Positions 17,901 to 50,038 of a DNA stretch of 64,000 nucleotides are shown here, one piece after another. This DNA is from Eledone cirrhosa. Taxonomy: Eukaryota. The position numbers and the translations under genes were made by a program. The stretch lies in NCBI GenBank assembly GCA_964016885.1, contig CAXHJY010001589.1, positions 6,862-70,861 of the forward strand, read 5' to 3'. The stretch's first letter is position 1. Every line of letters begins with the position of its first letter. The notes below the pieces were generated by a model that searched no databases, was not told where the DNA came from, and worked only from the letters and a program-made list of their open reading frames with translations.

Positions 17901-18622
17901 GTATGGCATAAATTCAGGCTGTTCAGTTTGTTTACAAACGAACAAAGCGACGTTAGCGCCGCTAAACTGATACGTGCATATATGTATGTGTACCTGTATG
18001 CATATGTATGTATATATGTATATATATATATATATGTGCATGCTACTGTACGTCTGTATACATATATGTATGTACGTATACATGCATACTTACATTTAAG
18101 TAAGTGCCATACTAAGAGTGAGAAATGAAATTTCGTTTTCATTTTGTTTCAATTTATCGTTTTCGGTATGCCTGACCGATTTAACTCACTCAATATGCAA
18201 ATTAGGCTGCTCAGCCGTTAATTTTCATAAGGAAAGTATATACTTTCGAACGTTCAACTATCTGGCAGATGGGTAAACGGTGCTGATGATAGCTAACAAG
18301 CTTGAAACTAGTACATCGTTCCTGTGTCAGTGTTGAACAAAAAGGTGACGTGGTTGCCTTAACACCGTATGGCATAAATTCAGGCTGTTCAGTTTGTTTA
18401 CAAACGAATAAAGCGACGTTAGCGCCGCTAAACTGATACGTGCATATATGTATGTGTACCTGTATGCATATGTATGTATATATGTATATATATATATATA
18501 TGTGCATGCTACTGTACGTCTGTATACATATATGTATGTACGTATACATGCATACTTACATTTAAGTAAGTGCCATACTAAGAGTGAGAAATGAAATTTC
18601 GTTTTCATTTTGTTTCAATTTA

Positions 18623-18623
<1 letters not shown>
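14935..18623. mobile_element. Retrozyme-like family A: one inverted monomer (14935-15419) fused to ~6.9 tandem 466-bp monomers (15420-18623), each with an HHR
   Basis: Unit starts at 15420, 15886, 16352, 16820, 17286, 17752, 18218; copies essentially identical; no credible ORF; flanked by (TA)n. Confidence 0.88.
15478..15522 (+). ncRNA. Minimal type I hammerhead ribozyme (first of 7 in the array; an eighth lies on the minus strand at ~15175-15219)
   Basis: AACGGTG-CTGATGA-TAGCT-AACA-AGCTT-GAAA-CTAG-TA-CATCGTT; palindromic loop III CTAG; U-U at base of stem II. Confidence 0.85.
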
Positions 18624-20176
<1,553 letters not shown>

Positions 20177-22993
20177 CCAATTGTACTGTTGACACATTCA
20201 AACTCAGTCTGTGACACACTGATAATACATATGAAGCAACTACAGACGGTAATATGTGTCACATATCGGCCGCCCGATGCCCCCAGTCATGAGGGTAAAT
20301 TTGAGGATAGCCTAAGTAGGATAGAATAGGTCCTTGACAAACTGGACCAGGGTCTCAACATCCTACTGTTGGGAGACTTCAACCTACCAAAGGTCAAATG
20401 GCCTGAGGGCCACCTCCTCCCTGGAATGACGTCAATAGAACAGAGACAGACGGAATCCCTGCTGGCCCTCACACACAGGCTGTTCATGGAGCAAGCAATA
20501 CTCCTCCCAACAAGAGGCGAAAATGTCCTGGACCTCTGTTTTACAAACAACGAAGTGCTCATCCACAATGTAAAGGTGACACCAACAATTCTCTCGGATC
20601 ATAACTTGGTAGAGCTAATGATATGTGGTCCAAGAGAACCAACAGAGACAAAACCACCAAGAAGCTCCGGGACGCTATCCAGCCTTAACTTCTACGGGGC
20701 TGACTGGAAGAAGATTAAGAGTAAAATCCGGAAGCAAACATGGAGTGCAAACATCGCCACACGAGACACTAACACACAATTTCAACACTTCATGACAACG
20801 ATACACACCATATGCAAAAAGTGTGTCCCGGAGAAAGAGGCAAACAGACACACAAAAATCTTATTCCCAGAGATAGGAAAATCCTTATGAGACGTAGAAC
20901 TAAACTCTCAAACCAGTTGAATAGTCAACAAAACCAAAACAAGAAGGAATCCTATTTGAAACGTGCACTACTTGACACCGAGATTGCACTCAAGCTTTCA
21001 CATGAGAATGAGAGGGCAAGGAAAGAGAACAGGGCCATAGAAAACATTAAAACAAACCCTAAGGCCTTCTTTAAATTTGCAAAAGAAACTGCCTCAGTAC
21101 ACTGCAAGATTGGACCACTCTTCCACACGGACGGTTCATTAACCGAAAATCCCCAAGAGATATGTGAAATACTGAACGAACAGTACAAAAGTGTCTTCAC
21201 ATGTCCACTGAGGCACATGCAAATAACGAAGCCAGAGGAGTTCTTTGATGCCACAACACTACATCAAGAAATGGCAACCATCAACCACATAGACATAACG
21301 GAGGAGGATGTGGTGTACGCCATTGATGAAATTAGAACAGACTCGGCTGCTGGACCTGATGGATTCCCAGCAGTTCTCCTAAAAATATGTAAGCGGGCCT
21401 TAGCAACTCCACAGAAGATGCTCTTCAGAAGCTCCTTAGCTAGCGGTGTACTACCCAGGGAGCTGAAAGAAGGCACAATATGCCCTATCCATAAAGGAGG
21501 TAGTAGAGCGGAGGCCAAGAACTATAGGCCAGTTTCCCTGACGTCGCATATCAGTAAGGTCATGGAGCGAGTCGTCAGAAAGAAACTAATCACTTTCCTC
21601 GAAGAAAATGACCGTCTGACTAGCACGCAACATGGCTTCCGCCCAGGAAGAAGCTGCCTTACACAGCTGCTACATCACTACGACTGGGTACTGAGACAAC
21701 TACTAGACAGCTCACATGTGGACGTGATATATCTTAACTTTGCGAAGGCCTTTGACAAGGTCGACCACGGAATGATATGTCACACACTACACGGACTCGG
21801 CATAATTGGAAAAGTAGGTGAGTGGCTGCATGGCTTCCTAACGGACAGAAGCCAGGCAGTCGCAGCAAATGGGGCCCTCTCGAAGGAAACACCGATAACA
21901 AGTGGGGTGCCCCAGGGGACAGTCCTGGGACCACTACTGTTTTTGGTGGCTCTCTCGGACATGCCCTCTGTGGTGCATGCAACAACATCTCTCACTAGCT
22001 ATGCTGATGACACTAAGGTAGCACAGGCAATCAAAAACCCGGCTGACGCTGCTCTTTTACAGCAGAATCTGGATGCCATATACAGATGGGCGGAAGAAAA
22101 CAACATGCAGTTTAATGCTGGCAAATTCCAAGCCCTACAATACAAACCTGCAAACACAAACACAAATATAGCGGAACACAGCTACACAGGACCAGGAGGG
22201 ACCGATATCCCCGTGTCAAAATCGATACGAGACCAGGGCATAGACATGAGCGATGATGCATATTTTTCTTCACACATCATGAAGGTGGCGACAGCATGTA
22301 GACGATTCGCTGGCTGGATCTTGAGGACATTTCTTACAAGAGATCGAGACACCATGTTGACACTGTGGAGGACTTTTGTCCTAAGCCGCCTGGACTACTG
22401 CTCCCAGCTGTGGTCACCCCATAGTGTCAAACTAACCACGGAGCTTGAGGCAATCCAGCGAAGCTACACCAAGAGGATTGCCAAGATGAGGGAGACAAGC
22501 TACTGGGAGAGGCTGAGGGAACTGAGCCTCTACTCCTTGGAGCGAAGACGGGAGAGATACGCAGTGATCTACATGTGGAAAATCCTGGAGGGACTAGTAC
22601 CAAACTTTGGCATTGGGAGCTGGACCAACCGTCGAACAGGACGTCACTGTGTGGTGTCAAAGGTCCCGTCTTCCACATCTAGAATAAGGAGCAGGTATTG
22701 CAATAGCCTGGGATTCAAGAGCCCTCAACTCTTCAACAGGCTGCCGAGGCATCTGCGAGACTTGCATGACGTGGAGGTGGATGTCTTTAAGAAACATCTC
22801 GACACCTTGTTATCCAGGATCCCGGATGAGCCCACAGCAAGACACGAGGGAAACCTAAGGGCAGCAGCAACAAACTCCCTCCTACACCAGTGGCCAACCT
22901 ATACAGGCTGGAGATAAAATGTTTAGCAACAAGGGCGGTGCCCCAGCATGGCCTCAGCCGGATGGCTGAAACAGGTAAAAGAGTAAAAGAGTA
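20177..22993 (+). pseudogene. CR1-type LINE family B, 5'-truncated ORF2 (APE-RT) with stop and frameshift
   Basis: YRPP, GDFN, SDH, NYRPVSLTS, GVPQG, YADD, YSLERRRERY; TAG at 20327-20329, frameshift near 20850, YLD>YLN; 3' stem-loop TCAGCC/GGCTGA and GTAAAAGAGTAAAAGAGTA tail into (TA)n. Confidence 0.93.
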
Positions 22994-23144
22994 TGTATAT
23001 ATATGTATATATATATATATGTATATATACAATTAAGTTAAAAAAATACATCTACATACTGAAATACATATGTAACCGGTTTTTAGATTCATACTGGTTT
23101 TTGAGGGAACACCTTCCCTCTATTCTCCAGAAAGCCAGACAAGG

Positions 23145-23189
23145 AATATTGAACTAGTTTCGTTGTTGTTACAACTCATCAGCAATATT
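23145..23189 (-). ncRNA. Minimal type I hammerhead ribozyme
   Basis: AATATTG-CTGATGA-GTTGT-AACA-ACAAC-GAAA-CTAG-TT-CAATATT; canonical core with perfect stems. Confidence 0.92.
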
Positions 23190-23610
23190 TACCTATCTAC
23201 CGGCCTTTCTGGAGAATTGTAAAAGCACATATTGTTATATGCTTTTTCTATGAAAATTAGTAGTGGGCAGACTAATTTGCATAGAGTGTGAGTACGCACC
23301 GGTTCAGCGGAGACGATAAAAACAAATAACGAAACGAAATTAAATTTCGTTTCGTTTGTAACTCACTTTTGTATGACTGACGCTTAAACAATTAAGTTAA
23401 AAAAATACATCTACATATGCATACTGAAATACTAGTGTGTATATGAATACACACACGTATACATATGTATATGTAACAAGTCTTTCACTGGTTGCTTTAC
23501 TGTGAGCACCCAGCTATTCTGTATGTAAACACACAGACAAACCGGTTTTTAGAGTCATACTGGTTTTTGAGGGAACACCTTCCCTCTATTCTCCAGAAAG
23601 CCAGACAAGG

Positions 23611-23655
23611 AATATTGAACTAGTTTCGTTGTTGTTACAACTCATCAGCAATATT
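23611..23655 (-). ncRNA. Minimal type I hammerhead ribozyme
   Basis: Identical to 23145-23189. Confidence 0.92.
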
Positions 23656-24043
23656 TACCTATCTACCGGCCTTTCTGGAGAATTGTAAAAGCACATATAG
23701 TTATATGCTTTTTCTATGAAAATTAGTAGTGGGCAGACTAATTTGCATAGAGTGTGAGTACGCACCGGTTCAGCGGAGACGATAAAAACAAATAACGAAA
23801 CGAAATTAAATTTCGTTTCGTTTGTAACTCACTTTTGTATGACTGACGCTTAAACAATTAAGTTAAAAAAATACATCTACATATGCATACTGAAATACTA
23901 GTGTGTATATGAATACACACACGTATACATATGTATATGTAACAAGTCTTTCACTGGTTGCTTTACTGTGAGCACCCAGCTATTCTGTATGTAAACACAC
24001 AGACAAACCGGTTTTTAGAGTCATACTCGTTTTTGAGTCATAC

Positions 24044-29723: not shown

Positions 29724-30025
29724 TGGTTATACTTTGGGAGGGTCATGTTTCCAATAAGAAACACACGCACCAGTAGCATTCACTTCAATTTATTATATAT
29801 TTATAAATTTATGAATTTACAAATCTACAAATTTATAAATTTCTGGTTGGTTGGTTGGTTCCACAACCAGATAGTTGTTTATATATAGTCATAGTCCTTG
29901 GTTGTGGAACCAACCAACCAACCAACCAGAAATTTATAAATTTGTAGATTTGTAAATTTATAAATTTATAAATATATAATAAATTGAAGTGAAAGCAACT
30001 GGTGTGTGTGTTTCTTATTGGCAAC

Positions 30026-33000
30026 AGGACCCTCCCAAAGTATAACAATATCCGTTTCAACACACGATTTCAGATAAAGAATCTTACTAAACAAATTCAG
30101 AAACGAAATATCGTAAGCCTTAGCCAGGCTAACAAGATACTGAAAACCACCATGTTCTGTTGTCTACGAAAAAGCATAACATCTCGACAACTATACTTCA
30201 TAAAGCTGTGTTCCTCGTCCAGAATCTACACCAACACCATCAATACTAACGTTAGAAGATTACAACTCACCAAAAAACAAGCAGATAGGCTAAAACGAAC
30301 ATTAATTCTAAACATAAAAAAGAAAATCTATAGAGAATTAAGTCATCAAGAAAAACAAAAGCGTAACCTAATACAAGAAATAGCTAGGATCACCACACCA
30401 AGAGAGAAACTAATATTTATAAGCCTTATACGCCCTGAAGAACAGTACATTACTCAAGAATGTGATAAGCACTTTAAGAGGAAACTAAAGTGGCTTAAAA
30501 AGGCAAAGCTAAATCAGGATACTATAGAGTATACCAATAGATATCCCGACAAAATTGACGGTATCAACATGGCCGACACCTCATTATCAGAAGAGTTCAA
30601 CAACAAAAAACACCAACATATATGGGAACGCAAAAATACATAATGATGAAATGTCTGTGTTATGTTTGCCGCCGAAATTTGAGACATTCAAGAAGGTAAA
30701 TATGATTAGTTGTCTGTCAGAAATAGAAAATTCATTTACAAAACTACGCTGGAGCATCAAAAACAAAAGCAACAATATACGCACACACATATACAACACA
30801 CATCCCAACAACAACAGACACACAGACACAAACAACAATAACAACAACACACACATCAACATCAACAATAACAACATACCCAGAAACAACAACAACAGAC
30901 ACGCAGACACAAACAACAATAACAACACACACAACAACGATAACACACACGGAGACAACAACAACACACATCAACAACAGCACACATCAACAACAACAAC
31001 ACACACGCATTCAATGCCTCTCACCACCACCACAATCTTAACAAACACACAGACACAGAAAACAAGTAATGACAGTAGCACAGAAATCACAGAAATAAGG
31101 GAAAGTAATAGGATTAAAAGGAGAAGGGAGACTAAGGACAAAGAGAATAACCAAGACGAACACACAGACACACAAAATAGGGTAGATAACAACATTGAGC
31201 CAGTGGAAAGAGACAGGAGTAATTATGAGAGACATAGAAACAACCATGATGCTGTTGGTGGAAATAGAAATAGAAACTACACAACTAACAATAACAATAG
31301 CACTAGTACACATAAAGCAGCAGCCTGGAACTCTCCGTTTTATAATCCCTCCGATAAATCATTCGACCTGCGACGAGTCCACGCCACGACTTTACCATTT
31401 AACAAACGCACGCAGTTGCCGTCGCAAGTCGATGAACAAACAGAAGCACAATTTAGTATAGCTAGATCCGAACTTAGAAATATTATAGAACAGTATAGCA
31501 AGAAGCATAATAGAATGGAGGCCCAGCAACTGGGAGAAAAATCTGCAAATGGCTTGCGTAAGCTCATGCAGCGCTCACGTAATGGAGAGATAGCATGCTT
31601 TCCAACAGACAAGTCTGGCAGAATGTCGGTTGACAGCCTGCCAAACTACATCCAGGCAATGCAACCCCACATCACTAACACAAGAGAGGTAACACCACAG
31701 GAGCATGAGGATAGAGAAAAAGCCCTCAATGCCCATATGGTGATGTGGACGAATATAATGCAGCCCAACAAAAGGACTGCCAACAACTTCCAGGCCTAGA
31801 ACAATGACGTGCCGGCGTTGTATGGGCTTCGAAAAGACCATAAAACGGGCTGTGACCCTGTCGCGGGACCACCAGCACGGCCAATCTGTGGAGCTAACAT
31901 TGCTAGTAACTACAGACTGTCCTATTTCCTCTCCCTGATTCATACGCCCCATCATTGAGATGTCCCCAGATGTATGTGACAGCACGGAGGACCTCCTCAG
32001 CGGAATCGGCGTGAGTAACCGATCTGGGGACCTAACAAACTGCATAATAGGCAGTATGGATGTTGTGTCCCTGTATCCATCTATTGACGTGGATTTTGCT
32101 GTGGAGAAATGCGTAGAAATGATCAGCGAGAGCAAGGTTGAGTTCCGTGGGATTGATACCAGTGAGCTGGGACTTCTACTTAAGCTTACCCATAGTAATA
32201 GTTACCTAGACACATATGACCTTAGCAACCTGTGCCCTACAAGACCAGCAAGAGGCAGACCACCTACCATTACCTCAACGGCCAAGAAAACCCACACAGA
32301 AAGATCGAACGGGTGGACCAGAGCCATACGGACACCCGAAAACCACGATGAACTGAAGAAAATGATTGCACATGCGGTAGGGGCCAGCATAAAATTAACC
32401 CTTAAGGAACATATGTTCAAATTTAATGGAAAAACATATGCCCAAGAGGAAGGAGCAGCCATTGGTGTTAGCATTGCAGGCGACATAGCTAACTTATTCA
32501 TGGTATGGTGGGACAGTAGACTTAAACTTAAACTTAAAGAACAATTAGAAGACAGCTTAACCCTGATAATGTACTCCCGCCACGTAGATGATATAAACAT
32601 CGTAATTAAGACACCCCCACTAGAGAACAGTCAGGAACTAGAGAAAAACACAATGGAAAGCATCCAGCAAATAGCAAACTCCATCCACCAGAGCATTAGA
32701 GTTACTATAGACTACCCAAGTAGACATCCCAACCATCGATTACCTGTACTAGACACAGAGCTCTGGTTAGATACGATTAATAACCAAAAACAAATCCTCC
32801 ATTCCCATTATGCCAAACCCATGACTTCCAAACATCTGATCCACCGAAACTCGGCCATTTCGGACCATACCAAAATCAACATACTGATTGCGGATTTGGT
32901 ACGGGTGATGAGAAATGTGTCCCGCATGTGCAACCCCGAAGAACTAGAGAGACACATACAACACTTCATCCACCTCCACCGTATGCAGTTCTCTGGCTAC

Positions 33001-33760
33001 AATCAGAGAGATAGAATCAGAGTGTATAGAGGAGCCAGAACCAAATGGGAAAAAATGGTAAATAATGACATAAATGGGACCTGCCCCTTGTATAGGAGCA
33101 AATTTTGGAATAGAATAGAAAGAACTAGGAACAAGGCCAATAGAATAAACTCATGGTATGATAGCAATAAATACCAGAGTGTAATGTTCATCGATACAAC
33201 CCCTAGAGGCGAACTAGCCTACACATTTAGAAGGGCCCTAAATAAACATAAACTCAATATTAAGATAGTAGAAAGACCAGGTACCTCCGTAAAAACACTT
33301 ATTAGCAAGACATACCCGTTCCAAAGACCCTCATGTATAGATAAGAAATGTATAACCTGTAAAATAAGCCCCCATATTAACTGTAAAACTGGAAATGTAG
33401 TGTATAGCATAAGATGTACTGAAGGACAATGTAGAAACAAAAATATAGTGTACATAGGTGAGACAGCTCGTAGTATAGGGGAACGGATAAATGAACACTG
33501 GCGAGACCTTCAAGATAATAAAGAATCATCTGTACTCTACCAACATGCTAAGATAGAACACAAGGGTAAATTAGAGAACAGAAATAAAAATAGAATCTAC
33601 ACACAGAAAAGACGCAATGTTTAGACAAATTACAGAGGCAATAAACATAAAAGAATTACAACCAAAATTAAATAGAAAATATGAGTGGAACAGCAACATC
33701 ACAAATTACAATAAAGGACAAAATGAAAACACACACACACATAAAACAAACAACCAACCA
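30026..33760 (+). pseudogene. PLE RT-GIY-YIG ORF, unit 1, disrupted
   Basis: Start ATG>AGG, frameshift ~30605, TAG 31797-31799, frameshift ~31941, YVDD>HVDD, frameshift ~33578; motifs [55 protein letters not shown]. Confidence 0.9.
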
Positions 33761-33917
33761 ATAACATGTAAATAAATAAACAAATAGATAAATGAACACA
33801 AACACACAGACACCCGGATGTGGCGCATGCGCAAACTGAGCACACAACACACACACAGAAACAAGATGTCGTAGGACAGAAGAAAGGAAAGGCACAGAAA
33901 CAAAGAAAGGAATCCCC

Positions 33918-33962
33918 AGTCACTGAAGAGGTCACAGAGTGTGTGACGAAAGGACTATGACT
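33918..33962 (+). ncRNA. Minimal type I hammerhead ribozyme (PLE pLTR)
   Basis: AGTCA-CTGAAGA-G-GTCACA-GAGTG-TGTGAC-GAAA-GGAC-TA-TGACT. Confidence 0.82.
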
Positions 33963-34102
33963 ATATATAAACAACTATCTGGTTTTGGAACCAACCAACC
34001 AACCAGAAATTTATAAATTTGTAGATTTGTAAATTTATAAATTTATAAATATATAATAAATTGAAGTGAAAGCAACTGGTGCGTGTGTTTCTTATTGGCA
34101 AC

Positions 34103-37100
34103 ATGACCCTCCCAAAGTATAACAATATCGGTTTCAACACACGATTTCAGATAAAGAATCTTGCTAAACAAATTCAGAAACGAAATATCGTAAGCCTTAG
34201 CCAGGCTAACAAGATACTGAAAACCACCATGTTCTGTTGTTTACGAAAAACCATAACATCTCGACAACTATACTTCATAAAGCAGTGTGCCTCGTCCAGA
34301 ATCTACACCAACACCATCAATACCGACGTTAGAAGATTACAACTCACCAAAAAACAAGCAGATAGGCTAAAACGAACATTAATTCTAAACATAAAAAAGA
34401 AGATCTATAGAGAATTAAGTCATCAAGAAAAACAAAAGCGTAACCTAATACAAGAAATAGCTAGGATCACCACACCAAGAGAGAAACTAATATTTATAAG
34501 CCTTATACGCCCTGAAGAACAGTACATTACTCAAGAATGTGATAAGCACTTTAAGAGGAAACTAAAGTGGCTTAAACAGGCAAAGCTAAATCAGGATACT
34601 ATAGAGTATACCAATAGATATCCCGACAAAATTGACGGTATCAACATGGCCGACACCTCATTATCAGAAGAGTTCAACAACAAAAACACCAACATATATG
34701 GGAACGCAAAAATACATAATGATGAAATGTCTGTGTTATGTTTGCCGCCGAAATTTGAGACATTCAAGAAGGTAAATATGATTAGTTGTCTGTCAGAAAT
34801 AGAAAATTCATTTACAAAACTACGCTGGAGCATCAAAAACAAAAGCAACAATATACGCACACACATATACAACACACATCCCAACAACAACAGACACACA
34901 GACACAAACAACAATAACAACAACACACACATCAACAACAACAATAACAACATACCCAGAAACAACAACAACAGACACGCAGACACAAACAACAATAACA
35001 ACACACACAACAACGATAACACACACGGAGACAACAACAACACACATCAACAACAGCACACATCAACAACAACAACACACACGCATTCAATGCCTCTCAC
35101 CACCACCACAATCTTAACAAACACACAGACACAGAAAACAAGTAATGACAGTAGCACAGAAATCACAGAAATAAGGGAAAATAATAGGATTAAAAGGAGA
35201 AGGGAGACTAAGGACAAAGAGAATAACCAAGACGAACACACAGACACACAAAATAGGGTAGATAACAACATTGAGCCAGTGGAAAGAGACAGGAGTAATT
35301 ATGAGAGACATAGAAACAACCATGATGCTGTTGGTGGAAATAGAAATAGAAACAACACAACTAACAATAACAATAGCACTAGTACACATAAAGCAGCAGC
35401 CTGGAACTCTCCGTTTATAATCCCTCCGATATATCATTCGACCTGCGACGAGTCCACGCCACGACTTTACCATTTAACAAACGCACGCAGTTGCCGTCGC
35501 AGGTCGATGAACAAACAGAAGCACAATTTAGTATAGCTAGATCCGAACTTAGAAATATTATAGAACAGTATAGCAAGAAGCATAATAGAATGGAGGCCCA
35601 GCAACAGGGAGAAAAATCTGCAAATGGCTTGCGTAAGCTCATACAGCGCTCACGTAATGGAGAGATAGCATGCTTTCCAACAGACAAGTCTGGCAGAATG
35701 TCGGTTGACAGCCTGCCAAACTACATCCAGGCAATGCAACCCCACATCACTAACACAAGAGAGGTAACACCACAGGAGCATGAGGATAGAGAAAAAGCCC
35801 TCAATGCCCATATGGTGATGTGGACGAATATAATGCAGCCCAACAAAAGGACTGCCAACAACTTCCAGGCCTAGAACAATGACGTGCCGGCGTTGTATGG
35901 GCTTCGAAAAGACCATAAAACGGGCTGTGACCCTGTCGCGGGACCACCAGCACGGCCAATCTGTGGAGCTAACATTGCTAGTAACTACAGACTGTCCTAT
36001 TTCCTCTCCCTGATTCATACGCCCCATCATTGAGATGTCCCCAGATGTATGTGACAGCACGGAGGACCTCCTCAGCAGAATCGGCGTGAGTAACCGATCT
36101 GGGGACCTAACAAACTGCATAATAGGCAGTATGGATGTTGTGTCCCTGTATCCATCTATTGACGTGGATTTTGCTGTGGAGAAATGCGTAGAAATGATCA
36201 GCGAGAGCAAGGTTGAGTTCGGTGGGATTGATACCAGTGAGCTGGGACTTCTACTTAAGCTTACCCATAGTAATAGTTACCTAGACACATATGACCTTAG
36301 CAACCTGTGCCCTACAAGACCAGCAAGAGGCAGACCACCTACCATTACCTCAACGGCCAAGGAAACCCACACAGAAAGATGGAAGGGGTTTACCAGAGCC
36401 ATACGGACACCCGAAAACCACGATGAACTGAAGAAAATGATTGCACATGCGGTAGGGGCCAGCATAAAATTAACCCTTAAGGAACATATGTTCAAATTTA
36501 ATGGAAAAACATATGCCCAAGAGGAAGGAGCAGCCATTGGTGTTAGCATTGCAGGCGACATAGCTAACTTATTCATGGTATGGTGGGACAGTAGACTTAA
36601 ACTTAAACTTAAAGAACAATTAGAAGACAGCTTAACCCTGATAATGTACTCCCGCTACGTAGATGATATAAACATCGTAATTAAGACACCCCCACTAGAG
36701 AACAGTCAGGAACTAGAGAAAAACACAATGGAAAGCATCCAGCAAATAGCAAACTCCATCCACCAGAGCATTAGAGTTACTATAGACTACCCAAGTAGAC
36801 ATCCCAACCATCGATTACCTGTACTAGACACAGAGCTCTGGTTAGATACGATTAATAACCAAAAACAAATCCTCCATTTCCATTATGCCAAACCCATGAC
36901 TTCCAAACATCTGATCCACCGAAACTCGGCCATTTCGGACCATACCAAAATCAACATACTGATTGCGGATTTGGTACGGGTGATGAGAAATGTGTCCCGC
37001 ATGTGCAACCCCGAAGAACTAGAGAGACACATACAACACTTCATCCACCTCCACCGTATGCAGTTCTCTGGCTACAATCAGAGAGATAGAATCAGATTGT

Positions 37101-37840
37101 ATAGAGGAGCCAGAACCAAATGGGAAAAAATGGTAAATAATGACATAAATGGGACCTGCCCCTTGTATAGGAGCAAATTTTGGAATAGAATAGAAAGAAC
37201 TAGGAACAAGGCCAATAGAATAAACTCATGGTATGATAGCAATAAATACCAGAGTGTAATGTTCATCGATATAACCCCTAGAGGCGAACTAGCCTACAAA
37301 TTTAGAAGGGCCCTAAATAAACATAAACTCAATATTAAGATAGTAGAAAGACCAGGTACCTCCGTAAAAACACTTATTAGCAAGACATACCCGTTCCAAA
37401 GACCCTCATGTATAGATAAGAAATGTATAACCTGTAACATAAGCCCCCATATTAACTGTAAAACTGGAAATGTAATGTATAGCATAAGATGTACTGAAGG
37501 ACAATGTAGAAACAAAAATATAGTGTACATAGGTGAGACAGCTCGTAGTATAGGGGATCGGATAAATGAACACTGGCGACACCTTCAACATAATAAAGAA
37601 TCATCTGTACTCTACCAACATGCTAAGATAGAACACAAGGGTAAATTAGAGAACATAGAAATAAAAATAGAATCTACACACAGAAAAGATGCAATGTTTA
37701 GACAAATTACAGAGGCAATAAACATAAAAGAATTACAACCAAAATTAAATAGGAAAAATGATGGAACAGCAACATCACAACTTAAAATTAAGGACAAAAT
37801 GAAAACACACACACACATAAAACAAACAACCAACCAATAA
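34103..37840 (+). pseudogene. PLE RT-GIY-YIG ORF, unit 2, disrupted
   Basis: ATG 34103 (MTLPKYNNI); frameshift ~35415, TAG 35872-35874, frameshift ~36016; intact YVDD and GIY-YIG in 36035-37840. Confidence 0.9.
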
Positions 37841-37991
37841 CATGTAAATAAACAAATAAATAAATGAACATAAACACAGACAGACACCCGGATGTGGCGC
37901 ATGCGCAGACTGTGCACACAACACACACACAGAAACAAAGTGGCGTAGGACAGAAGAAAGGAAAGGCACAGAAACAAAGAAATGAATCCCC

Positions 37992-38036
37992 AGTCACTGA
38001 AGAGGTCACAGAGTGTGTGACGAAAGGACTATGACT
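37992..38036 (+). ncRNA. Minimal type I hammerhead ribozyme (PLE pLTR)
   Basis: Identical to 33918-33962. Confidence 0.82.
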
Positions 38037-38298
38037 ATATTTAAACAACTATCTGGTTGTGGAACCAACCAACCAACCAGAAATTTATAAATTTGTAGAT
38101 TTGTAAATTTATAAATTTATAAATATATAATAAATTGAAGTGAAGGCATGGGGTGCGTGTGTTTCTTATTGGCAACATGACCCTCCCAAAGTATAACAAC
38201 ATCGGTTTCAACACACGATTTCAGATAAAGAATCTTGCTAAATAAATTAAGAAACGAAATATATATATATGCATATATATATATATATATGTATATGC

Positions 38299-38328
<30 letters not shown>

Positions 38329-38329
<1 letters not shown>

Positions 38330-40016
38330 ATATATTTAGAAACACACAGATACATGCGGACACACACATATACATGAATGCATCCGCACCCAACCATGAG
38401 TTAAGGGTGCCAACTTCACCGATGTTGCTCAATGAATGACTGGGACAGACCAATCCGGTTGAACCAGACTGAACCAGTATCAGAGTTAAAAATACATTAT
38501 GAAGAGAGAAGAAACATTTAGATATAATTAGTAATAAAATGTATCATACCTAAACTGCTCCTAGATTCCTCGACTACGTAGTTTCGTGGCATAAACAAAA
38601 ACAATATATCATAAAGATATAGAGTCCTTGCGAGGTCTGCCGACTTATCAAGAGGATACCTCATTTTACTAGTCTCAAGAACGCGTCTCCACAACGTGAG
38701 AAAGAATCCCAAAAGGCGGAGGGGGAGATAGTCACGCGATATAACGGTCGAGAAACAGAGCTAAGCCTCTTATAACCCCGAAGAAAATACCACGGAGGCG
38801 GAGGGGGTATTTATATCGAAGCCGTAGAAGAGGTGGTGAAGGAGGCGAGAAGTATGAGTAATGAAAGCTTTCCAGCAGTCCCCACACTTCAAAGATTGCT
38901 CGACCAGAGGGAGTTATTAACAATATATTTAGAAACACACAGATACATGCGGACACACACATATACATGAATGCATCCGCACCCAACCATGAGTTAAGGG
39001 TGCCAACTTCACCGATGTTGCTCAATGAATGACTGGGACAGACCAATCCGGTTGAACCAGACTGAACCAGTATCAGAGTTAAAAATACATTATGAAGAGA
39101 GAAGAAACATTTAGATATAATTAGTAATAAAATGTATCATACCTAAACTGCTCCTAGATTCCTCGACTACGTAGTTTCGTGGCATAAACAAAAACAATAT
39201 ATCATAAAGATATAGAGTCCTCGCGAGGTCTGCCGACTTATCAAGAGGATACCTCATTTTACTAGTCTCAAGAACGCGTCTCCACAACGTGAGAAAGAAT
39301 CCCAAAAGGCGGAGGGGGAGATAGTCACGCGATATAACGGTCGAGAAACAGCGCTAAGCTTCTTATAACCCCGAAGAAAATACCACGGAGGCGGAGGGGG
39401 TATTTATATCGAAGCCGTAGAAGAGGTGGTGAAGGAGGCGAGAAGTATGAGTAATGAAAGCTTTCCAGCAGTCCCCACACTTCAAAGATTGCTCGACCAG
39501 AGGGAGTTATTAACAATATATTTAGAAACACACAGATACATGCGGACACACACATATACATGAATGCATCCGCACCCAACCATGAGTTAAGGGTGCCAAC
39601 TTCACCGATGTTGCTCAATGAATGACTGGGACAGACCAATCCGGTTGAACCAGACTGAACCAGTATCAGAGTTAAAAATACATTATGAAGAGAGAAGAAA
39701 CATTTAGATATAATTAGTAATAAAATGTATCATACCTAAACTTAGGCTTAGCTCTGTTTCTCGACCGTTATATCGCGTGACTATCTCCCCCTCCGCCTTT
39801 TGGGATTCTTTCTCACGTTGTGGAGACGCGTTCTTGAGACTAGTAAAATGAGGTATCCTCTTGATAAGTCGGCAGACCTCGCAAGGACTCTATATCTTTA
39901 TGATATATTGTTTTTGTTTATGCCACGAAACTACGTAGTCGAGGAATCTAGGAGCAGTTTAGGTATGATACATTTTATTACTAATTATATCTAAATGTTT
40001 CTTCTCTCTTCATAAT

Positions 40017-40020
<4 letters not shown>
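38329..40020. mobile_element. Retrozyme-like family C: ~2.4 tandem 593-bp monomers (38329-39742) fused to an inverted arm (39744-40020)
   Basis: Units start 38329, 38922, 39515; variant HHRs at 38567-38656 (-), 39160-39249 (-), 39856-39945 (+); flanked by (TA)n. Confidence 0.82.
39856..39945 (+). ncRNA. Type I hammerhead variant with U3-A8 core and ~60 nt domain II
   Basis: TCCTC-TTGATAA-GTCGGCA...TGCCAC-GAAA-CTACGTAG-TC-GAGGA; GUC cleavage triplet, palindromic stem III. Confidence 0.75.
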
Positions 40021-40054
<34 letters not shown>

Positions 40055-40089
40055 GTATATATCTATATATATATATGTATATATATATG

Positions 40090-40120
<31 letters not shown>

Positions 40121-40385
40121 GTATATATACGTATATGTATATATGTATGTATATATATATGTATATATATATGTATATATATATGTATATATATATGTAT
40201 ATATATATGTATATATTTATATATATATGTATATATATATGTATATATATATGTATATATATGTATATATATATGTATATATATGTATATGTATATATAT
40301 ATATGTGTATGTATATATATATATATGTATATGTATATATATGTATATGTATATGTATATATATATGTATATATATATGTATATG

Positions 40386-40418
<33 letters not shown>

Positions 40419-40422
40419 GTAT

Positions 40423-40470
<48 letters not shown>

Positions 40471-40623
40471 GTATGTATATATATATATATGTATGTATAT
40501 ATATATATATGTATATATATATATGTATGTATATATATATATATGTATATATATATATGTATGTATATATATATATATGTATGTATATGTATATGTATGT
40601 ATATATATATATATATGTATATA
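40021..40623. repeat. Imperfect (TA)n/(TATG)n tract
   Basis: Directly visible. Confidence 0.97.
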
Positions 40624-42071: not shown

Positions 42072-42654
42072 ATAATTAAGTTAAAAATGTACATCCACAT
42101 ATGTATACTGAAATACTAGTATGCATATGAATACACACACGTATACATATGTAGATGTACCGAGTTTTTCACTGGTCACTTTACTGTGAGTGTCCAGCTA
42201 TTCTGTATGTAAACACACAGACAAACCGGTTTTTAGAGTCATACTGGTTTTTGAGGAAACACCTTTCCTCTATTCTCCAGAAAGCCAGACAAGGAATATT
42301 GAACTAGTTTCGATGTTGTTACATCTCATCAGCAATATTTACCTATCTTCCGGCCTCTCTAGAGAATCGTAAAAGCACATATCGTTATATGCTTTTTCTA
42401 TGAAAATTAGTAGTGGGCAGACTAATTTGCATAGAGCGTGTTTACATACAGAATAGCTGGACACTCACAGTAAAGTGACCAGTGAAAAACTCGGTACATC
42501 TACATATGTATACGTGTGTGTATTCATATGCATACTAGTATTTCAGTATACATATGTGGATGTACATTTTTAACTTAATTGTTTAAGCGTCAGTCATACA
42601 AAAGTGAGTTACAAACGAAACGAAATTTAATTTCGTTTCGTTATTTGTTTTTAT
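42072..42654. mobile_element. Retrozyme-like family B variant: antisense arm (42072-42440, HHR 42295-42339 on minus) fused to a sense arm (42438-42654)
   Basis: Homologous to 23030-24044; inversion junction at GTG microhomology; (TA)n on both sides. Confidence 0.87.
42295..42339 (-). ncRNA. Minimal type I hammerhead ribozyme
   Basis: AATATTG-CTGATGA-GATGT-AACA-ACATC-GAAA-CTAG-TT-CAATATT; compensatory change in stem II versus 23145-23189. Confidence 0.92.
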
Positions 42655-47564: not shown

Positions 47565-48439
47565 AAGGCGGGTAAAATTCCCGAGATCCATGGACGAGTT
47601 CTCTCCAGCGGTCTCTGTCCCTCATTATCGCTGCCATATCCTGCATCTCCAACAGACCAGTGTCTGTCCTTAGGGCAGCAACATGTGTTAACCTTGGTCT
47701 TCCGCTTCTAGTGTGTCCATGTAGGGGCTCCCAAAGGAGCACTGAGTGCAATGTCAACTCTGGATGTCGGTGAGCATGTCCAGCCAACCTCAGTCTCCTC
47801 TGTGTCATTTTGAGCTGACTTTTGTGATGCTCCCATACAGCTCTGAGTTTTTCATCCTCAGTGTATACTGATTAATGTTCAGAGCCATCCTCAGCATTCT
47901 CGTGTAGAACCCATCCACCATCTGAGTGAGTCTCTTGGTCAGTGTCCAAGTCTCAGACCCATACAGCAGCACAGACTCCACTACAGCAATGAAGAGGCGG
48001 ATTTTCAGGTCTCTACGAAGGTCCGACTTCCAGACCGATCTCAAGCTGTGACACGCCGCCCAGGCCTTGCTCTTCCTCTCAACCACATCATCTTCCGTAT
48101 TCCCAATCTTTGCTCCCAAATACAGGAAGTCCTCAACCAATTCCAGCGGCTTCCCGCCTACATTAGTGATCCCCTCTGGCTTCTCAACATTCTCTACCAG
48201 ATATTTTGTTTTAGTCTCATTCATTCTCAGCCCCACACTCATCGACACAGTCTCAACCTCCCGCATCAAATCCTCTGCCTCCTTCACTGTATTTGTCACC
48301 AAAACTATGTCGTCGGCAAATTGAGCATCCGATACCTTTTTCGCCCCAACTCTCCTGCTCTGAGCCGGTGCTACAGTAAAGCCAGTGTCCTGGTGTTTCT
48401 CCAGTGCAAGGCGCATACAATAGTCCACTACGATGATAA

Positions 48440-48445
<6 letters not shown>
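47563..48445 (-). pseudogene. RTE-like non-LTR retrotransposon, 5'-truncated RT fragment
   Basis: [52 protein letters not shown]; one frameshift at ~47806; stop codon abuts (TA)n. Confidence 0.88.
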
Positions 48446-48531
<86 letters not shown>

Positions 48532-48541
48532 GTATGTATAT

Positions 48542-50038
48542 ATAAAGGAGGTAGTAGAGCGGAGGCCAAGAACTATAGGCCAGTTTCCCTGACGACGCAT
48601 ATCAGTAAGGTCATGGAGCGAGTCGTCAGAAAGAAACTAATCACTTTCCTCGAAGAAAATGACCGTCTGACTAGCACGCAACATGGCTTCCGCCCAGGAA
48701 GAAGTTGCCTTACACAGCTGCTACATCACTACGACTGGGTACTGAGACAACTACTAGACAGCTCACATGTGGACGTGATATATCTTGACTTTGCGAAGGC
48801 CTTTGACAAGGTCGACCACGGAATGATATGTCACACACTACACGGACTAGGCATAATTGGAAAAGTAGGTGAGTGGCTGCATGGCTTCCTAACGGACAGA
48901 AGCCAGGCAGTCGCAGTAAATGGGGCCCTCTCGAAGGAAACACCGATAACAAGTGGGGTGCCCCAGGGGACAGTCCTGGGACCACTACTGTTTTTGGTGG
49001 CTCTCTCGGACATGCCCTCTGTGGTGCATGCAACAACATCTCTCACTAGCTATGCTGATGACACTAAGGTAGCACAGGCAATCAAAAACCCGGCTGACGC
49101 TGCTCTTTTACAGCAGAATCTGGATGCCATATACAGATGGGCGGAAGAAAACAACATGCAGTTTAATGTTGGCAAATTCCAAGCCCTACAATACAAACCT
49201 ACAAACACAAATATAGTGGAACACAGCTACACAGGACCAGGAGGGACCGATATCCCCGTGTCAAAATCGATACGAGACCTGGGCATAGACATGAGCGATG
49301 ATGCATCTTTTTCTTCACACATCATGAAGGTGGCGACAACATGTAGACGATTCGCTGGCTGGATCTTGAGGACTTTCCTTACAAGAGATCGACCCACCAT
49401 GTTGACACTGTGGAGGACTTTTGTTCTAAGCCGCCTGGACTACTGCTCCCAGCTGTGGTCACCCCATAGTGTCAAACTAACCACGGAGATTGAGGCAATC
49501 CAGCGAAGCTACACCAAGAGGATTGCCAAGATGAGGGAGACAAGCTACTGGGAGAGGCTAAAGGAACTGAACCTCTACTCCTTGGAGCGAAGACGGGAGA
49601 GATACGCAGTGATCTACATGTGGAAAATCCTGGAGGGACTAGCACCGAACTTTGGCATTGGGAGCTGGACCAACCGTCGAAGAGGACGTCACTGTGTGGT
49701 GCCAAAGATCCCGTCTTCCACATCTAGAATAAGGAGCAGGTATTGCAATAGCCTGGGATTCAAGGGTCCTCAACTCTTCAACAGGCTGCCGAGGCATCTG
49801 AGAGACTTGCATGACGTGGAGGTGGATGTCTTTAAGAAACATCTCGACACCTTGTTATCCAGGATCCCGGATGAGCCCACAGCAAGACACGAGGGAAACC
49901 TAAGGGCAGCAGCAACAAACTCCCTCCTACACCAGTGGCCAACCTATACAGGCTGGAGATAAAACGTGTAGCAACAAGGGCGGTGCACCAGCATGGCCTC
50001 AGCCGGATGGCTGAAACAGGTAAAAGAGTAAAAGAGTA
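48542..50038 (+). mobile_element. CR1-type LINE family B, 5'-truncated copy with open RT frame (to 49962)
   Basis: NYRPVSLT, YLDFAKAFD, GVPQG, YADD, ...TGWR*; same tail as the 20177-22993 copy. Confidence 0.94.

What the first reader, a model, noticed from the sequence alone, without database searches (positions are those of the whole stretch)
38329..40020. 593-bp tandem family C carries a hammerhead with a U3-A8 core swap and a large branched domain II
Seen: core TTGATAA instead of CTGANGA, stem I TCCTC/GAGGA, stem II GT(C)GGCA/TGCCAC enclosing two small hairpins (CCT/AGG, TATATC/GATATA), then GAAA, an 8-nt palindrome CTACGTAG and a GUC triplet. Known: positions 3 and 8 form a Watson-Crick pair in the active HHR, so the double change C3U+G8A preserves pairing. 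Inference: a functional variant that standard CUGANGA searches would miss, in an unusually long retrozyme-like monomer.
Basis: partly seen in the sequence, partly recalled or inferred. Interest (0 to 1): 0.72.

Follow-up and report, generated by a model that had tools for sequence, protein, structure and literature searches.

The report
Variant-core hammerhead in a mobile repeat
This 593-base repeat, present in more than 6,000 copies in the genome, carries a hammerhead self-cutting RNA motif with a known swapped base pair (U3-A8) in its core, and comparison with an older sister repeat shows the motif has been kept by selection and likely cuts as a pair of two copies; cutting itself has not been tested.

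Summary
The sequence is as described. A 593-bp unit lies in 2.39 direct copies (38322-39742), followed by a 282-bp inverted piece (39744-40025), between (TA)n tracts. Each unit holds a complete type I hammerhead: core UUGAUAA, GAAA, A15.1-U16.1 and C17 (39940 on +; 39165 and 38572 on -).

It is not chance: 1 of 3000 shuffles gives any match.

It is family-wide. Of 6,372 genomic copies, 6,355 have U3-A8, 17 are single mutants and none has the canonical core.

Across the genome positions 3 and 8 covary: 13,527 C-G and 6,679 U-A motifs, against 216 and 359 unpaired ones.

An older sister family, about 73% identical, keeps all 13 core bases. It has compensated pairs in helices I and II, in the apical hairpin, and in two pairs of the 8-nt palindrome that can only form between two molecules. 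This argues for a selected, dimer-acting ribozyme.

Domain II is one long hairpin, not branched.

Insertions have Penelope-type shape, with hammerhead-sense 3' ends facing outward into (TA)n.

U3-A8 has been in print since 2011 and 2014, and this scan found such retrozymes before, in this genome too. Verdict: a real, well-supported new member of a known kind. Cleavage, circles and expression are untested, and no RNA run was available.

The parts
38322..39742 (-). Left arm: 2.39 direct 593-bp units of family C. The hammerhead-sense (RNA-sense) strand is the - strand, so its 3' end faces left into (TA)n.
39744..40025 (+). Right arm: inverted partial unit (unit positions about 164-438). The hammerhead-sense strand is the + strand, so its 3' end faces right into (TA)n.
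39856..39945 (+). Hammerhead copy in the right arm. Stem I 39856-39860 with 39941-39945; core U3-A9 39861-39867; helix II domain 39868-39926; G12-A15.1 39927-39930; 8-nt palindrome 39931-39938; U16.1 39939; C17 39940 (predicted cut after it).
39160..39249 (-). Hammerhead copy in direct unit 2. U3 is at 39244 and C17 at 39165. It carries the G variant in the helix II arm (CGCGAGG).
38567..38656 (-). Hammerhead copy in direct unit 1. U3 is at 38651 and C17 at 38572.
38259..38335 (.). Left (TA)n target microsatellite, abutting unit position 1.
40018..40623 (.). Right (TA)n target microsatellite, abutting unit position 164.

Best explanation
Family C is a young, high-copy, non-coding mobile repeat of the non-LTR retrozyme kind whose RNA-sense strand carries a complete type I hammerhead motif with the natural U3-A8 core variant. 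The motif is predicted to cut after C17 (39940 on +; 39165 and 38572 on -), most likely as a double hammerhead in which the palindromes of two copies pair.

Shown here:
- The motif and its place.
- Its presence in at least 6,355 units.
- Conservation of the core and compensated base pairs against an older sister family.
- Genome-wide covariation of positions 3 and 8.
- Two-armed insertions in (TA)n with the hammerhead-sense 3' ends outward.

Inferred steps:
- Arrays are transcribed on the hammerhead strand.
- Two motifs form a 10-bp helix III in trans, and each cuts. This would give 593-nt RNAs with 5'-OH and 2',3'-cyclic phosphate ends.
- These RNAs are probably closed into circles by a host tRNA ligase.
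- A Penelope-like reverse transcriptase/endonuclease would then copy the circular or multimeric RNA. It would start from both 3' ends of a break in (TA)n, primed at two AU-rich template sites (unit positions 1 and 164). This would leave two opposed arms with variable inner ends.
For: Motif:
- All invariant hammerhead positions are present except C3/G8, which are replaced by a U-A pair. G10.1-C11.1, A15.1-U16.1 and the GUC site are also present.
- 1 of 3000 unit shuffles and 0 of 60 window shuffles match the descriptor.

Family-wide:
- The 18-mer with U3/A8 occurs 6,355 times (control 0). The canonical-core version occurs 0 times. The Y/R version occurs 6,372 times, which leaves 17 single mutants.
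- The core is invariant in 101 of 101 copies read from loci that partly overlap.

Genome-wide 3-8 covariation, in the frame xTGATxAG-N8-24-CGAAAC:
- C..G 13,527 (control 32).
- U..A 6,679 (control 254).
- C..A 216 (control 96).
- U..G 359 (control 108).
- At least 7 different compensated helix II sequences occur among the U-A motifs.

Sister family C' (2,242 first-look candidates, 40 scored; copies 86-92% alike, about 73.5% identical to family C). On a 42-row alignment:
- 91.7% of cells are paired, against 34-61% when partners are slid.
- 21 cells are changed on both sides, against a shuffled mean of 7.9 (0 of 500 shuffles reach it).
- Compensated pairs: helix I 2.4-1.4 (UA 21, UG 13, CG 4); helix II 10.2-11.2 (UA 37, CG 4); apical hairpin (CG 36, UA 2, UG 2); palindrome positions 3-6 (GC 36, AU 4) and 4-5 (CG 27, UA 7, UG 4).
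- The last two pairs cannot form within one hairpin, only between two molecules.
- Family C against the C' majority: core 0 of 13 differences, paired 11 of 54, unpaired 12 of 29, flank 13 of 42.
- Within C' copies, core columns deviate 1.6% (8 of 494), against 5.7-7.6% elsewhere.

Dimer fold: two copies fold to -62.5 kcal/mol with a 10-bp trans helix III, against 2 x -24.4.

Mobility and strand:
- 40 insertion sites were derived from the 137 scored matches.
- 25 are two-armed, all in the order that puts hammerhead-sense 3' ends outward.
- 21 of the 25 have outer ends at unit positions 1/2 and 159-170.
- All 15 single arms start at position 1/2 (11) or 164 (4).
- 25 of 25 such ends examined abut (TA)n.
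- A Penelope-type ORF (RVT_1 E 3e-4; GIY-YIG E 1.4e-3, below cut-off) lies next door.

Literature (passages read):
- U3-A8 covaries in nature and such cores are active in vitro (PMC3088659).
- U3-A8 occurs in Penelope-element hammerheads, which have a 4-5 bp helix I, a long helix II with an unpaired base, and work as dimers (PMC4209133).
- Penelope insertions are partial tandems with an inverted truncated copy and a microsatellite bias (PMC8557442).
Against: - No cleavage, circle or transcript was observed, and no RNA run was listed.
- Rfam models do not score the motif.
- The single-molecule fold is only mildly better than shuffles (z -1.74; 9 of 200 shuffles fold as well).
- No loop-loop tertiary contact of the canonical metazoan kind can be pointed to. 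A roughly 45-nt arm replaces loop 2. Penelope-type minimal hammerheads cut poorly in vitro (PMC4209133).
- None of 65 inner arm ends lies at the predicted cleavage site (unit position 243/244). The insertions therefore give no direct trace of cut RNA.
- Covariation rests on a few lineages, not many independent events. The single-step intermediates at the CpG of the C' palindrome (UG 4, other 4) look like ordinary CpG decay.
- No autonomous partner with sequence similarity to family C was found.
Confidence: 0.7

Rival explanations
1. Relic motif. The hammerhead is inherited from an ancestor but no longer cuts usefully. The repeat spreads simply because Penelope-type enzymes copy its multimeric transcript.
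For: - Penelope elements of the Naiad clade multiply to tens of thousands of copies without canonical hammerheads (PMC8557442 passages).
- Minimal Penelope hammerheads have low activity in vitro.
- No arm end lies at the cleavage site.
- Loop 2 is replaced by a long arm.
Against: - There are 0 of 13 core differences from a family about 27% diverged, against 35% in unconstrained columns.
- Compensated changes occur in all three helices.
- Core columns are about 4-fold less variable among C' copies.
- A relic would have drifted.
Confidence: 0.17
2. The ribozyme is active but works as a single molecule, with a 3-bp helix III capped by an ACGU tetraloop as in invertebrate retrozymes. On this view the palindrome is incidental.
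For: - Invertebrate retrozyme hammerheads with a 2-bp helix III plus tetraloop cut well as monomers (PMC7229834 passages).
- A-U, C-G and U-A pairs can close an ACGU loop.
Against: - The four 'loop' positions stay self-complementary through two compensated changes: CUACGUAG, CUGCGCAG and CUGUACAG. A loop would not need this.
- The dimer fold gains 13.7 kcal/mol.
Confidence: 0.1
3. An ordinary satellite, or a chance look-alike. On this view the repeat is a tandem DNA satellite spread by recombination, and its hammerhead resemblance is accidental.
For: - Tandem arrangement.
- Rfam is silent on the motif.
Against: - Shuffle test.
- 40 dispersed sites with two fixed ends and (TA)n targets.
- Covariation.
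- 26-fold excess of U3-A8 motifs over the reversed-pattern control.
Confidence: 0.02

Closest known systems
Metazoan non-LTR retrozymes (Cervera and de la Pena 2020, PMC7229834, abstract and passages read; Li, Clavereau and Pollet 2026 preprint 10.64898/2026.07.22.740005, abstract and sections 12 and 14 read)
   Same: - Short, non-coding, low-GC (42.7%) tandem repeats.
- One type I hammerhead per unit.
- Dispersed in many copies.
- Proposed dependence on Penelope-like elements.
   Different: - The unit of 593 nt exceeds the 170-400 nt of the 2020 paper, though it lies inside the 51-972 bp of the preprint.
- The core is U3-A8.
- Loop 2 is replaced by a long hairpin arm (helix II domain of 59 nt).
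- RNA circles are not shown here.
Minimal hammerheads of Penelope-like elements, including the U3-A8 variant of Schistosoma Cercyon elements (Cervera and de la Pena 2014, PMC4209133, passages read)
   Same: - U3-A8 covariation.
- Short helix I (5 bp).
- Long helix II base (6 bp) with an unpaired nucleotide on the 5' strand.
- Palindromic helix III and dimeric action.
- Insertion shape of Penelope elements.
   Different: - Here the motif sits in a tandem non-coding unit, not in the terminal repeat of a coding element.
- Helix III is an 8-nt palindrome rather than absent or minimal.
- Helix II carries a further arm of about 45 nt.
Natural U3-A8 hammerhead core variants (Perreault et al. 2011, PMC3088659, passages read)
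   Same: The same compensated core pair. The paper states that such cores were already proven active in vitro.
   Different: This is an abundant eukaryotic repeat in which U3-A8 motifs are about as common as canonical ones.
Double hammerheads of newt satellite 2, avocado sunblotch viroid and Aedes repeats (cited in PMC4209133, and in the Figure S8 legend of PMC3088659; original papers not read)
   Same: A weak or palindromic helix III that becomes a long helix (10 bp in Aedes and here) when two copies pair.
   Different: Here the trans pairing is backed by compensated changes between sister families. The core is the U3-A8 variant.

Membership tests
Hammerhead ribozyme (Rfam clan CL00010) | Three helices around a junction, in the order helix I, core, helix II, GAAA, helix III, cleavage site, helix I | tested here: met
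   The descriptor scan finds 3 of 3 units. 91.7% of cells are paired across 42 relatives, with compensated pairs in helices I, II and III.
Hammerhead ribozyme (Rfam clan CL00010) | Core C3 U4 G5 A6 N7 G8 A9 | tested here: inconclusive
   U4, G5, A6 and A9 are present. C3 and G8 are replaced by U3 and A8. This is a published natural covariation that keeps the 3-8 pair and covaries genome-wide here. The literal consensus is not met; the pairing rule is.
Hammerhead ribozyme (Rfam clan CL00010) | G12 A13 A14, A15.1-U16.1 pair, H17 at the cleavage site | tested here: met
   GAAA at 39927-39930, U 39939, C 39940. These differ at 0 of 13 core columns from the sister family.
Hammerhead ribozyme (Rfam clan CL00010) | Scores above the gathering threshold of an Rfam hammerhead model | tested here: not met
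   No hammerhead match, even at E<=10. This is expected from the changed core and the 59-nt helix II domain.
Hammerhead ribozyme (Rfam clan CL00010) | Site-specific self-cleavage giving 2',3'-cyclic phosphate and 5'-OH ends | not testable with these tools
   No RNA run was listed.
Metazoan non-LTR retrozyme | Short tandem repeats, each with a type I hammerhead, low GC, dispersed in many copies | tested here: met
   593-bp units, GC 42.7%. There are at least 6,355 motif copies and 40 sites among the 137 scored matches.
Metazoan non-LTR retrozyme | [quoted passage not shown] | not testable with these tools
   No RNA holder was listed. The runs laid were contigs of unknown kind.
Penelope-type insertion | Partial tandems with an adjacent inverted 5'-truncated copy, fixed 3' ends, and a microsatellite target | tested here: met
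   - 25 of 40 sites are two-armed, all in one order.
- 21 of the 25 have outer ends at unit positions 1/2 and 159-170.
- 25 of 25 such ends abut (TA)n.
- The features are as described in PMC8557442.
Penelope-type insertion | Sequence relation to the terminal repeat of an autonomous Penelope-like element | tested here: not met
   There is no similarity to the neighbouring RT plus GIY-YIG element or to anything else in the window. No RT was found in the loci of a related long-arm hammerhead family. The search was narrow.

The most novel reading that the evidence does not exclude
U3-A8 hammerheads with a long helix II arm are a separate, long-lived and selected lineage. Together with the compact U3-A8 forms they make up about half of this genome's hammerheads. 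They work only as dimers. The conserved arm is not decoration: it is a handle for the copying machinery (the Penelope reverse transcriptase or the ligase that closes the circle), which would explain why it co-occurs with the variant core in several unrelated repeat families.
Probability: 0.15. Interest if true: 0.6.

Novelty: new member of a known kind. Interest (0 to 1): 0.4.

Why it matters
Motif searches built on CUGANGA or on Rfam models miss this family entirely.

In this genome the U3-A8 core is common. There are 6,355 family C units, 6,679 compact motifs and about 800 other long-arm motifs above the control (1,189 against 376). The comparable canonical count is 13,527. Ribozyme and retrozyme censuses of animal genomes may therefore be low by a large factor.

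The sister-family comparison also gives natural compensatory evidence, not just a plausible drawing, that a genomic hammerhead works as a dimer. The two-armed insertions show which strand is the copied RNA. Both points are directly testable with simple constructs.

The element itself is an ordinary member of a known class.

Tried and rejected
- RNA evidence: no RNA holder was listed for the unit. The four runs laid were contigs of unknown kind. They show only that the family exists at 95-99% likeness in runs labelled as three organisms, with no variant of >=10% share at core positions.
- An own-genome search with the 106-nt motif returned nothing, not even the window itself. This is a filter effect of the tool. 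The 593-nt query worked.
- A canonical-core ancestor of family C was looked for and not found (0 matches).
- Arm ends at the cleavage site were looked for as a trace of cut RNA: 0 of 65.
- Autonomous partner: family C has no similarity to the rest of the window. ORFs between paired long-arm hammerheads of another family (L091-L093) have no Pfam match at E<=0.1 apart from two sub-threshold chance-level hits. Against those loci (L091-L095), tblastn with the window's RT and Penelope-like ORFs gave no RT match; the only hit was a 24-residue match of a neighbouring non-RT ORF in L095.
- Literature: Przybilski and Hammann 2007 (PMC1986816) is not held, so the in vitro activity of U3-A8 cores rests on the statement in PMC3088659. 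A phrase search for hammerheads with a long or extended helix II found only 6-bp 'long' helices. No report of arms of tens of nucleotides was seen, but the search was narrow. The supplements of the cited papers were not opened.

Full report
**What is in the window**

Reading 38000-40400 and the repeat finder show a 593-bp unit. It lies in direct copies from 38322 to 39742 (2.39 units, 99% alike). An inverted piece follows at 39744-40025 that is 99% complementary to 38487-38768. Both outer ends run into (TA)n tracts (38259-38335 and 40018-40623). The 'tandem family' is therefore a two-armed insertion. The two full units carry the same motif on the - strand.

**The motif**

On the + strand the parts are:

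| Part | Coordinates | Sequence |
|---|---|---|
| Stem I | 39856-39860 with 39941-39945 | UCCUC/GAGGA |
| Core | 39861-39867 | UUGAUAA |
| Helix II domain (59 nt) | 39868-39926 | closed by G-C, U-A, a bulged C, then G-C, G-C, C-G, A-U |
| G12-A15.1 | 39927-39930 | GAAA |
| Palindrome | 39931-39938 | CUACGUAG |
| U16.1 | 39939 | U |
| C17 | 39940 | C |

- Every invariant hammerhead position is present except C3 and G8, which are U and A.
- My descriptor scan finds exactly these three copies. It also finds three canonical hammerheads elsewhere in the window, at 23152-23182, 23618-23648 and 42302-42332 on the - strand.
- The same descriptor hits 1 of 3000 dinucleotide-preserving shuffles of the unit and 0 of 60 shuffles of the window.
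- Rfam gives nothing for this region even at E<=10.
- Rfam does give sub-threshold HH9 matches (38.6 bits, cut-off 52) to the neighbouring 466-bp repeat.

**Family size and uniformity**

- The 593-bp unit finds 1,529 first-look candidates in the 3.0-Gb genome. Of the 40 scored, 137 matching pieces are 96-100% identical and lie on many contigs.
- The 18-mer spanning stem I, core and helix II occurs 6,355 times (reversed-pattern control 0).
- The version with the canonical C3/G8 occurs 0 times.
- The version with Y at 3 and R at 8 occurs 6,372 times, which leaves 17 single mutants.
- Among 101 copies read from partly overlapping loci, the core, GAAA and GUC never vary.
- Contigs of runs labelled as two further organisms hold the family at 95-99% likeness, with no common variant in the core.

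**U3-A8 is a regular core in this genome**

Counts in the frame xTGATxAG, 8-24 nt, CGAAAC:

| Positions 3..8 | Matches | Reversed-pattern control |
|---|---|---|
| C..G | 13,527 | 32 |
| U..A | 6,679 | 254 |
| C..A | 216 | 96 |
| U..G | 359 | 108 |

- The listed mixed cases look like scattered single mutants of the two paired classes.
- The U..A motifs fall into several families whose helix II differs by compensated changes: GCUU/AAGC, GUAC/GUAC, GCAC/GUGC, GCAU/AUGC, GGAG/CUCC, GCCC/GGGC and GAUG/CAUC.
- With a longer gap (25-52 nt) there are 1,189 matches against 376 in the control.
- These include other families with long helix II arms and compensated closing stems, such as GCUCG/CGAGC, GCUUG/CAAGC and GUUCC/GGAAC.
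- The long arm is therefore not unique to family C.

**A sister family gives the comparative test**

- One long-gap match (L094) is a diverged relative, 73.5% identical over 370 nt, with the same outer ends.
- Searching with it found an older family, here called C'. It has 2,242 first-look candidates, 40 scored, and copies 86-92% like the query.
- I aligned 38 C' hammerhead regions with 4 family C rows: two from the window and two from a variant array in L118. I then counted pairs for the hammerhead structure.
- 91.7% of cells are paired, against 34-61% when partners are slid by 1-3 columns.
- 21 cells are changed on both sides, against 7.9 in shuffles (0 of 500 reach it).

The compensated pairs are:

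| Pair | States observed |
|---|---|
| Helix I 2.4-1.4 | UA 21, UG 13, CG 4 |
| Helix II 10.2-11.2 | UA 37, CG 4 |
| Apical hairpin | CG 36, UA 2, UG 2 |
| Palindrome positions 3-6 | GC 36, AU 4 |
| Palindrome positions 4-5 | CG 27, UA 7, UG 4 |

- The 3-8 pair is U-A in 42 of 42 rows.
- Family C against the C' majority differs at 0 of 13 core columns, 11 of 54 paired columns, 12 of 29 unpaired hammerhead columns and 13 of 42 flank columns.
- Among C' copies, core columns deviate in 1.6% of cells (8 of 494), against 5.7-7.6% elsewhere.

Caveats:
- The rows descend from a few master lineages, so each compensated pair is probably one event.
- The single-step UG and CA states at the CpG of the C' palindrome look like CpG decay of dead copies.

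**Dimer**

- The three versions of the 8-mer (CUACGUAG, CUGCGCAG, CUGUACAG) are all perfect palindromes.
- Positions 3-6 and 4-5 would be a tetraloop in a single hairpin and cannot pair there. Their compensated changes make sense only if two copies pair.
- Two copies of the motif fold to -62.5 kcal/mol with a 10-bp intermolecular helix III, against -24.4 each alone.
- This is the double-hammerhead arrangement described for newt, viroid, Aedes and Penelope-element motifs (passages).

**Domain II**

- A single long imperfect hairpin is paired in 92.4% and is the minimum-energy fold.
- The domain is long but unbranched.

**How it moves, and which strand is the RNA**

- Grouping the 137 pieces gives 40 insertion sites. 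Two of them look like one segmental duplicate.
- 25 sites are two-armed, and all 25 have the arms in the same relative order.
- 21 of the 25 have their outer ends at unit positions 1/2 on one side and 159-170 on the other. None has the same end twice.
- The four exceptions have the short arm ending at positions 72, 307, 370 or 482.
- The 15 single arms start at position 1/2 (11) or 164 (4).
- Inner ends vary.
- 25 of 25 fixed ends examined in the loci abut (TA)n.
- Loose ends in the contig run X1 show the same (table 7).
- Fixed ends are the starts of reverse transcription in retroelements. On that reading the copied RNA is the hammerhead-sense strand in both arms, and the same order holds for C'. 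That is what a ribozyme-bearing template requires. This step is inferred.
- Partial tandems with an inverted truncated copy and a microsatellite bias are the described footprint of Penelope-like elements (PMC8557442).
- An ORF with reverse transcriptase and a weak GIY-YIG match lies directly upstream, in a 4,076-bp tandem. It shares no sequence with family C.
- No inner end lies at the cleavage site (0 of 65). This fits circular or uncut multimeric templates but gives no trace of cleavage.

**Comparison with what is known**

- U3-A8 covariation in natural hammerheads, and the activity of such cores in vitro, are stated in PMC3088659.
- The same variant in Penelope-element hammerheads, about 1,300 hits in Schistosoma, is in PMC4209133. 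That paper also describes the short helix I, the long helix II with an unpaired base, and dimeric action.
- The 2'-OH of residue 8, not its base, is the proposed general acid (PMC6155905). This fits tolerance of the swap.
- Animal retrozymes are described as 170-400 nt in PMC7229834 and as 51-972 bp in the 2026 preprint.
- Earlier notes of this scan had already reported two-armed Penelope-type retrozymes of 310, 422 and 467 bp and a compact U3-A8 hammerhead in this same genome, and U3-A8 retrozymes in other genomes.

**Verdict**

The thing is a new member of a known kind. This analysis adds three points:
- The genome-wide 3-8 covariation table.
- The sister-family evidence for a selected core and a trans helix III.
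- The finding that long helix II arms recur among U3-A8 motifs here.

Cleavage, expression, circularisation and the identity of the copying enzyme remain untested.

Noticed in passing
window 29930-38230: A unit of about 4,076 bp is repeated in tandem (markers at 29930, 34007 and 38081). Its ORFs at 31960-33624 and 36035-37840 are 97% identical. [quoted passage not shown] This looks like a Penelope-like element in partial tandem, directly upstream of family C but unrelated in sequence.
   Followed up: partly
window 15420-18623 (+), 23074-24037 (-), 42302-42332 (-): Two 466-bp tandem families have canonical CUGAUGA type I hammerheads and a CUAG palindromic loop III. The first starts helix II with a U-U mismatch; the second gives Rfam HH9 38.6 bits. 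There is also a solitary related hammerhead near 42.3 kb. All lie next to (TA)n.
   Followed up: partly
window 20812-22917 (+), 48433-49962 (+), 10401-13418 (-): Two reverse-transcriptase ORFs are 95% identical over 479 residues and have no endonuclease domain detected. A separate LINE-type ORF has an apurinic-type endonuclease plus RT. The window is a nest of retroelements in microsatellite DNA.
   Followed up: no
L091-L093, L095 (G000 contig C1, four sites): Another U3-A8 hammerhead family has a 52-nt helix II arm whose base (UCGGCUA/UAGCCG) resembles that of family C. It also has a stable 6-bp helix III. It occurs as opposed pairs 1.9-5.5 kb apart. The ORFs of 236-452 residues between them have no Pfam match. 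It may be a larger element using the same kind of ribozyme.
   Followed up: partly
family C unit positions 39-74 and 198-232 (window 38960-38995 and 39119-39153): Inner (variable) arm ends are not uniform. 15 of 65 fall in positions 39-74 and 13 of 65 in positions 198-232, each about 6% of the unit. The second cluster lies 11-45 nt before the hammerhead on the template. This could be a pausing or joining preference of the reverse transcriptase.
   Followed up: no
window 39850-39860 (+): Just upstream of stem I, GAGG-UAU-CCUC can form a small hairpin that competes with stem I for the CCUC strand. The GAGG is kept in the sister family (G-C becomes G-U). It is a possible on/off switch of the ribozyme, but there is no covariation to test it.
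   Followed up: partly
L118:237-380 and 832-975 (-): A diverged subfamily of family C with a 595-bp period differs mainly in the helix II arm and keeps the core and the CUACGUAG palindrome.
   Followed up: no
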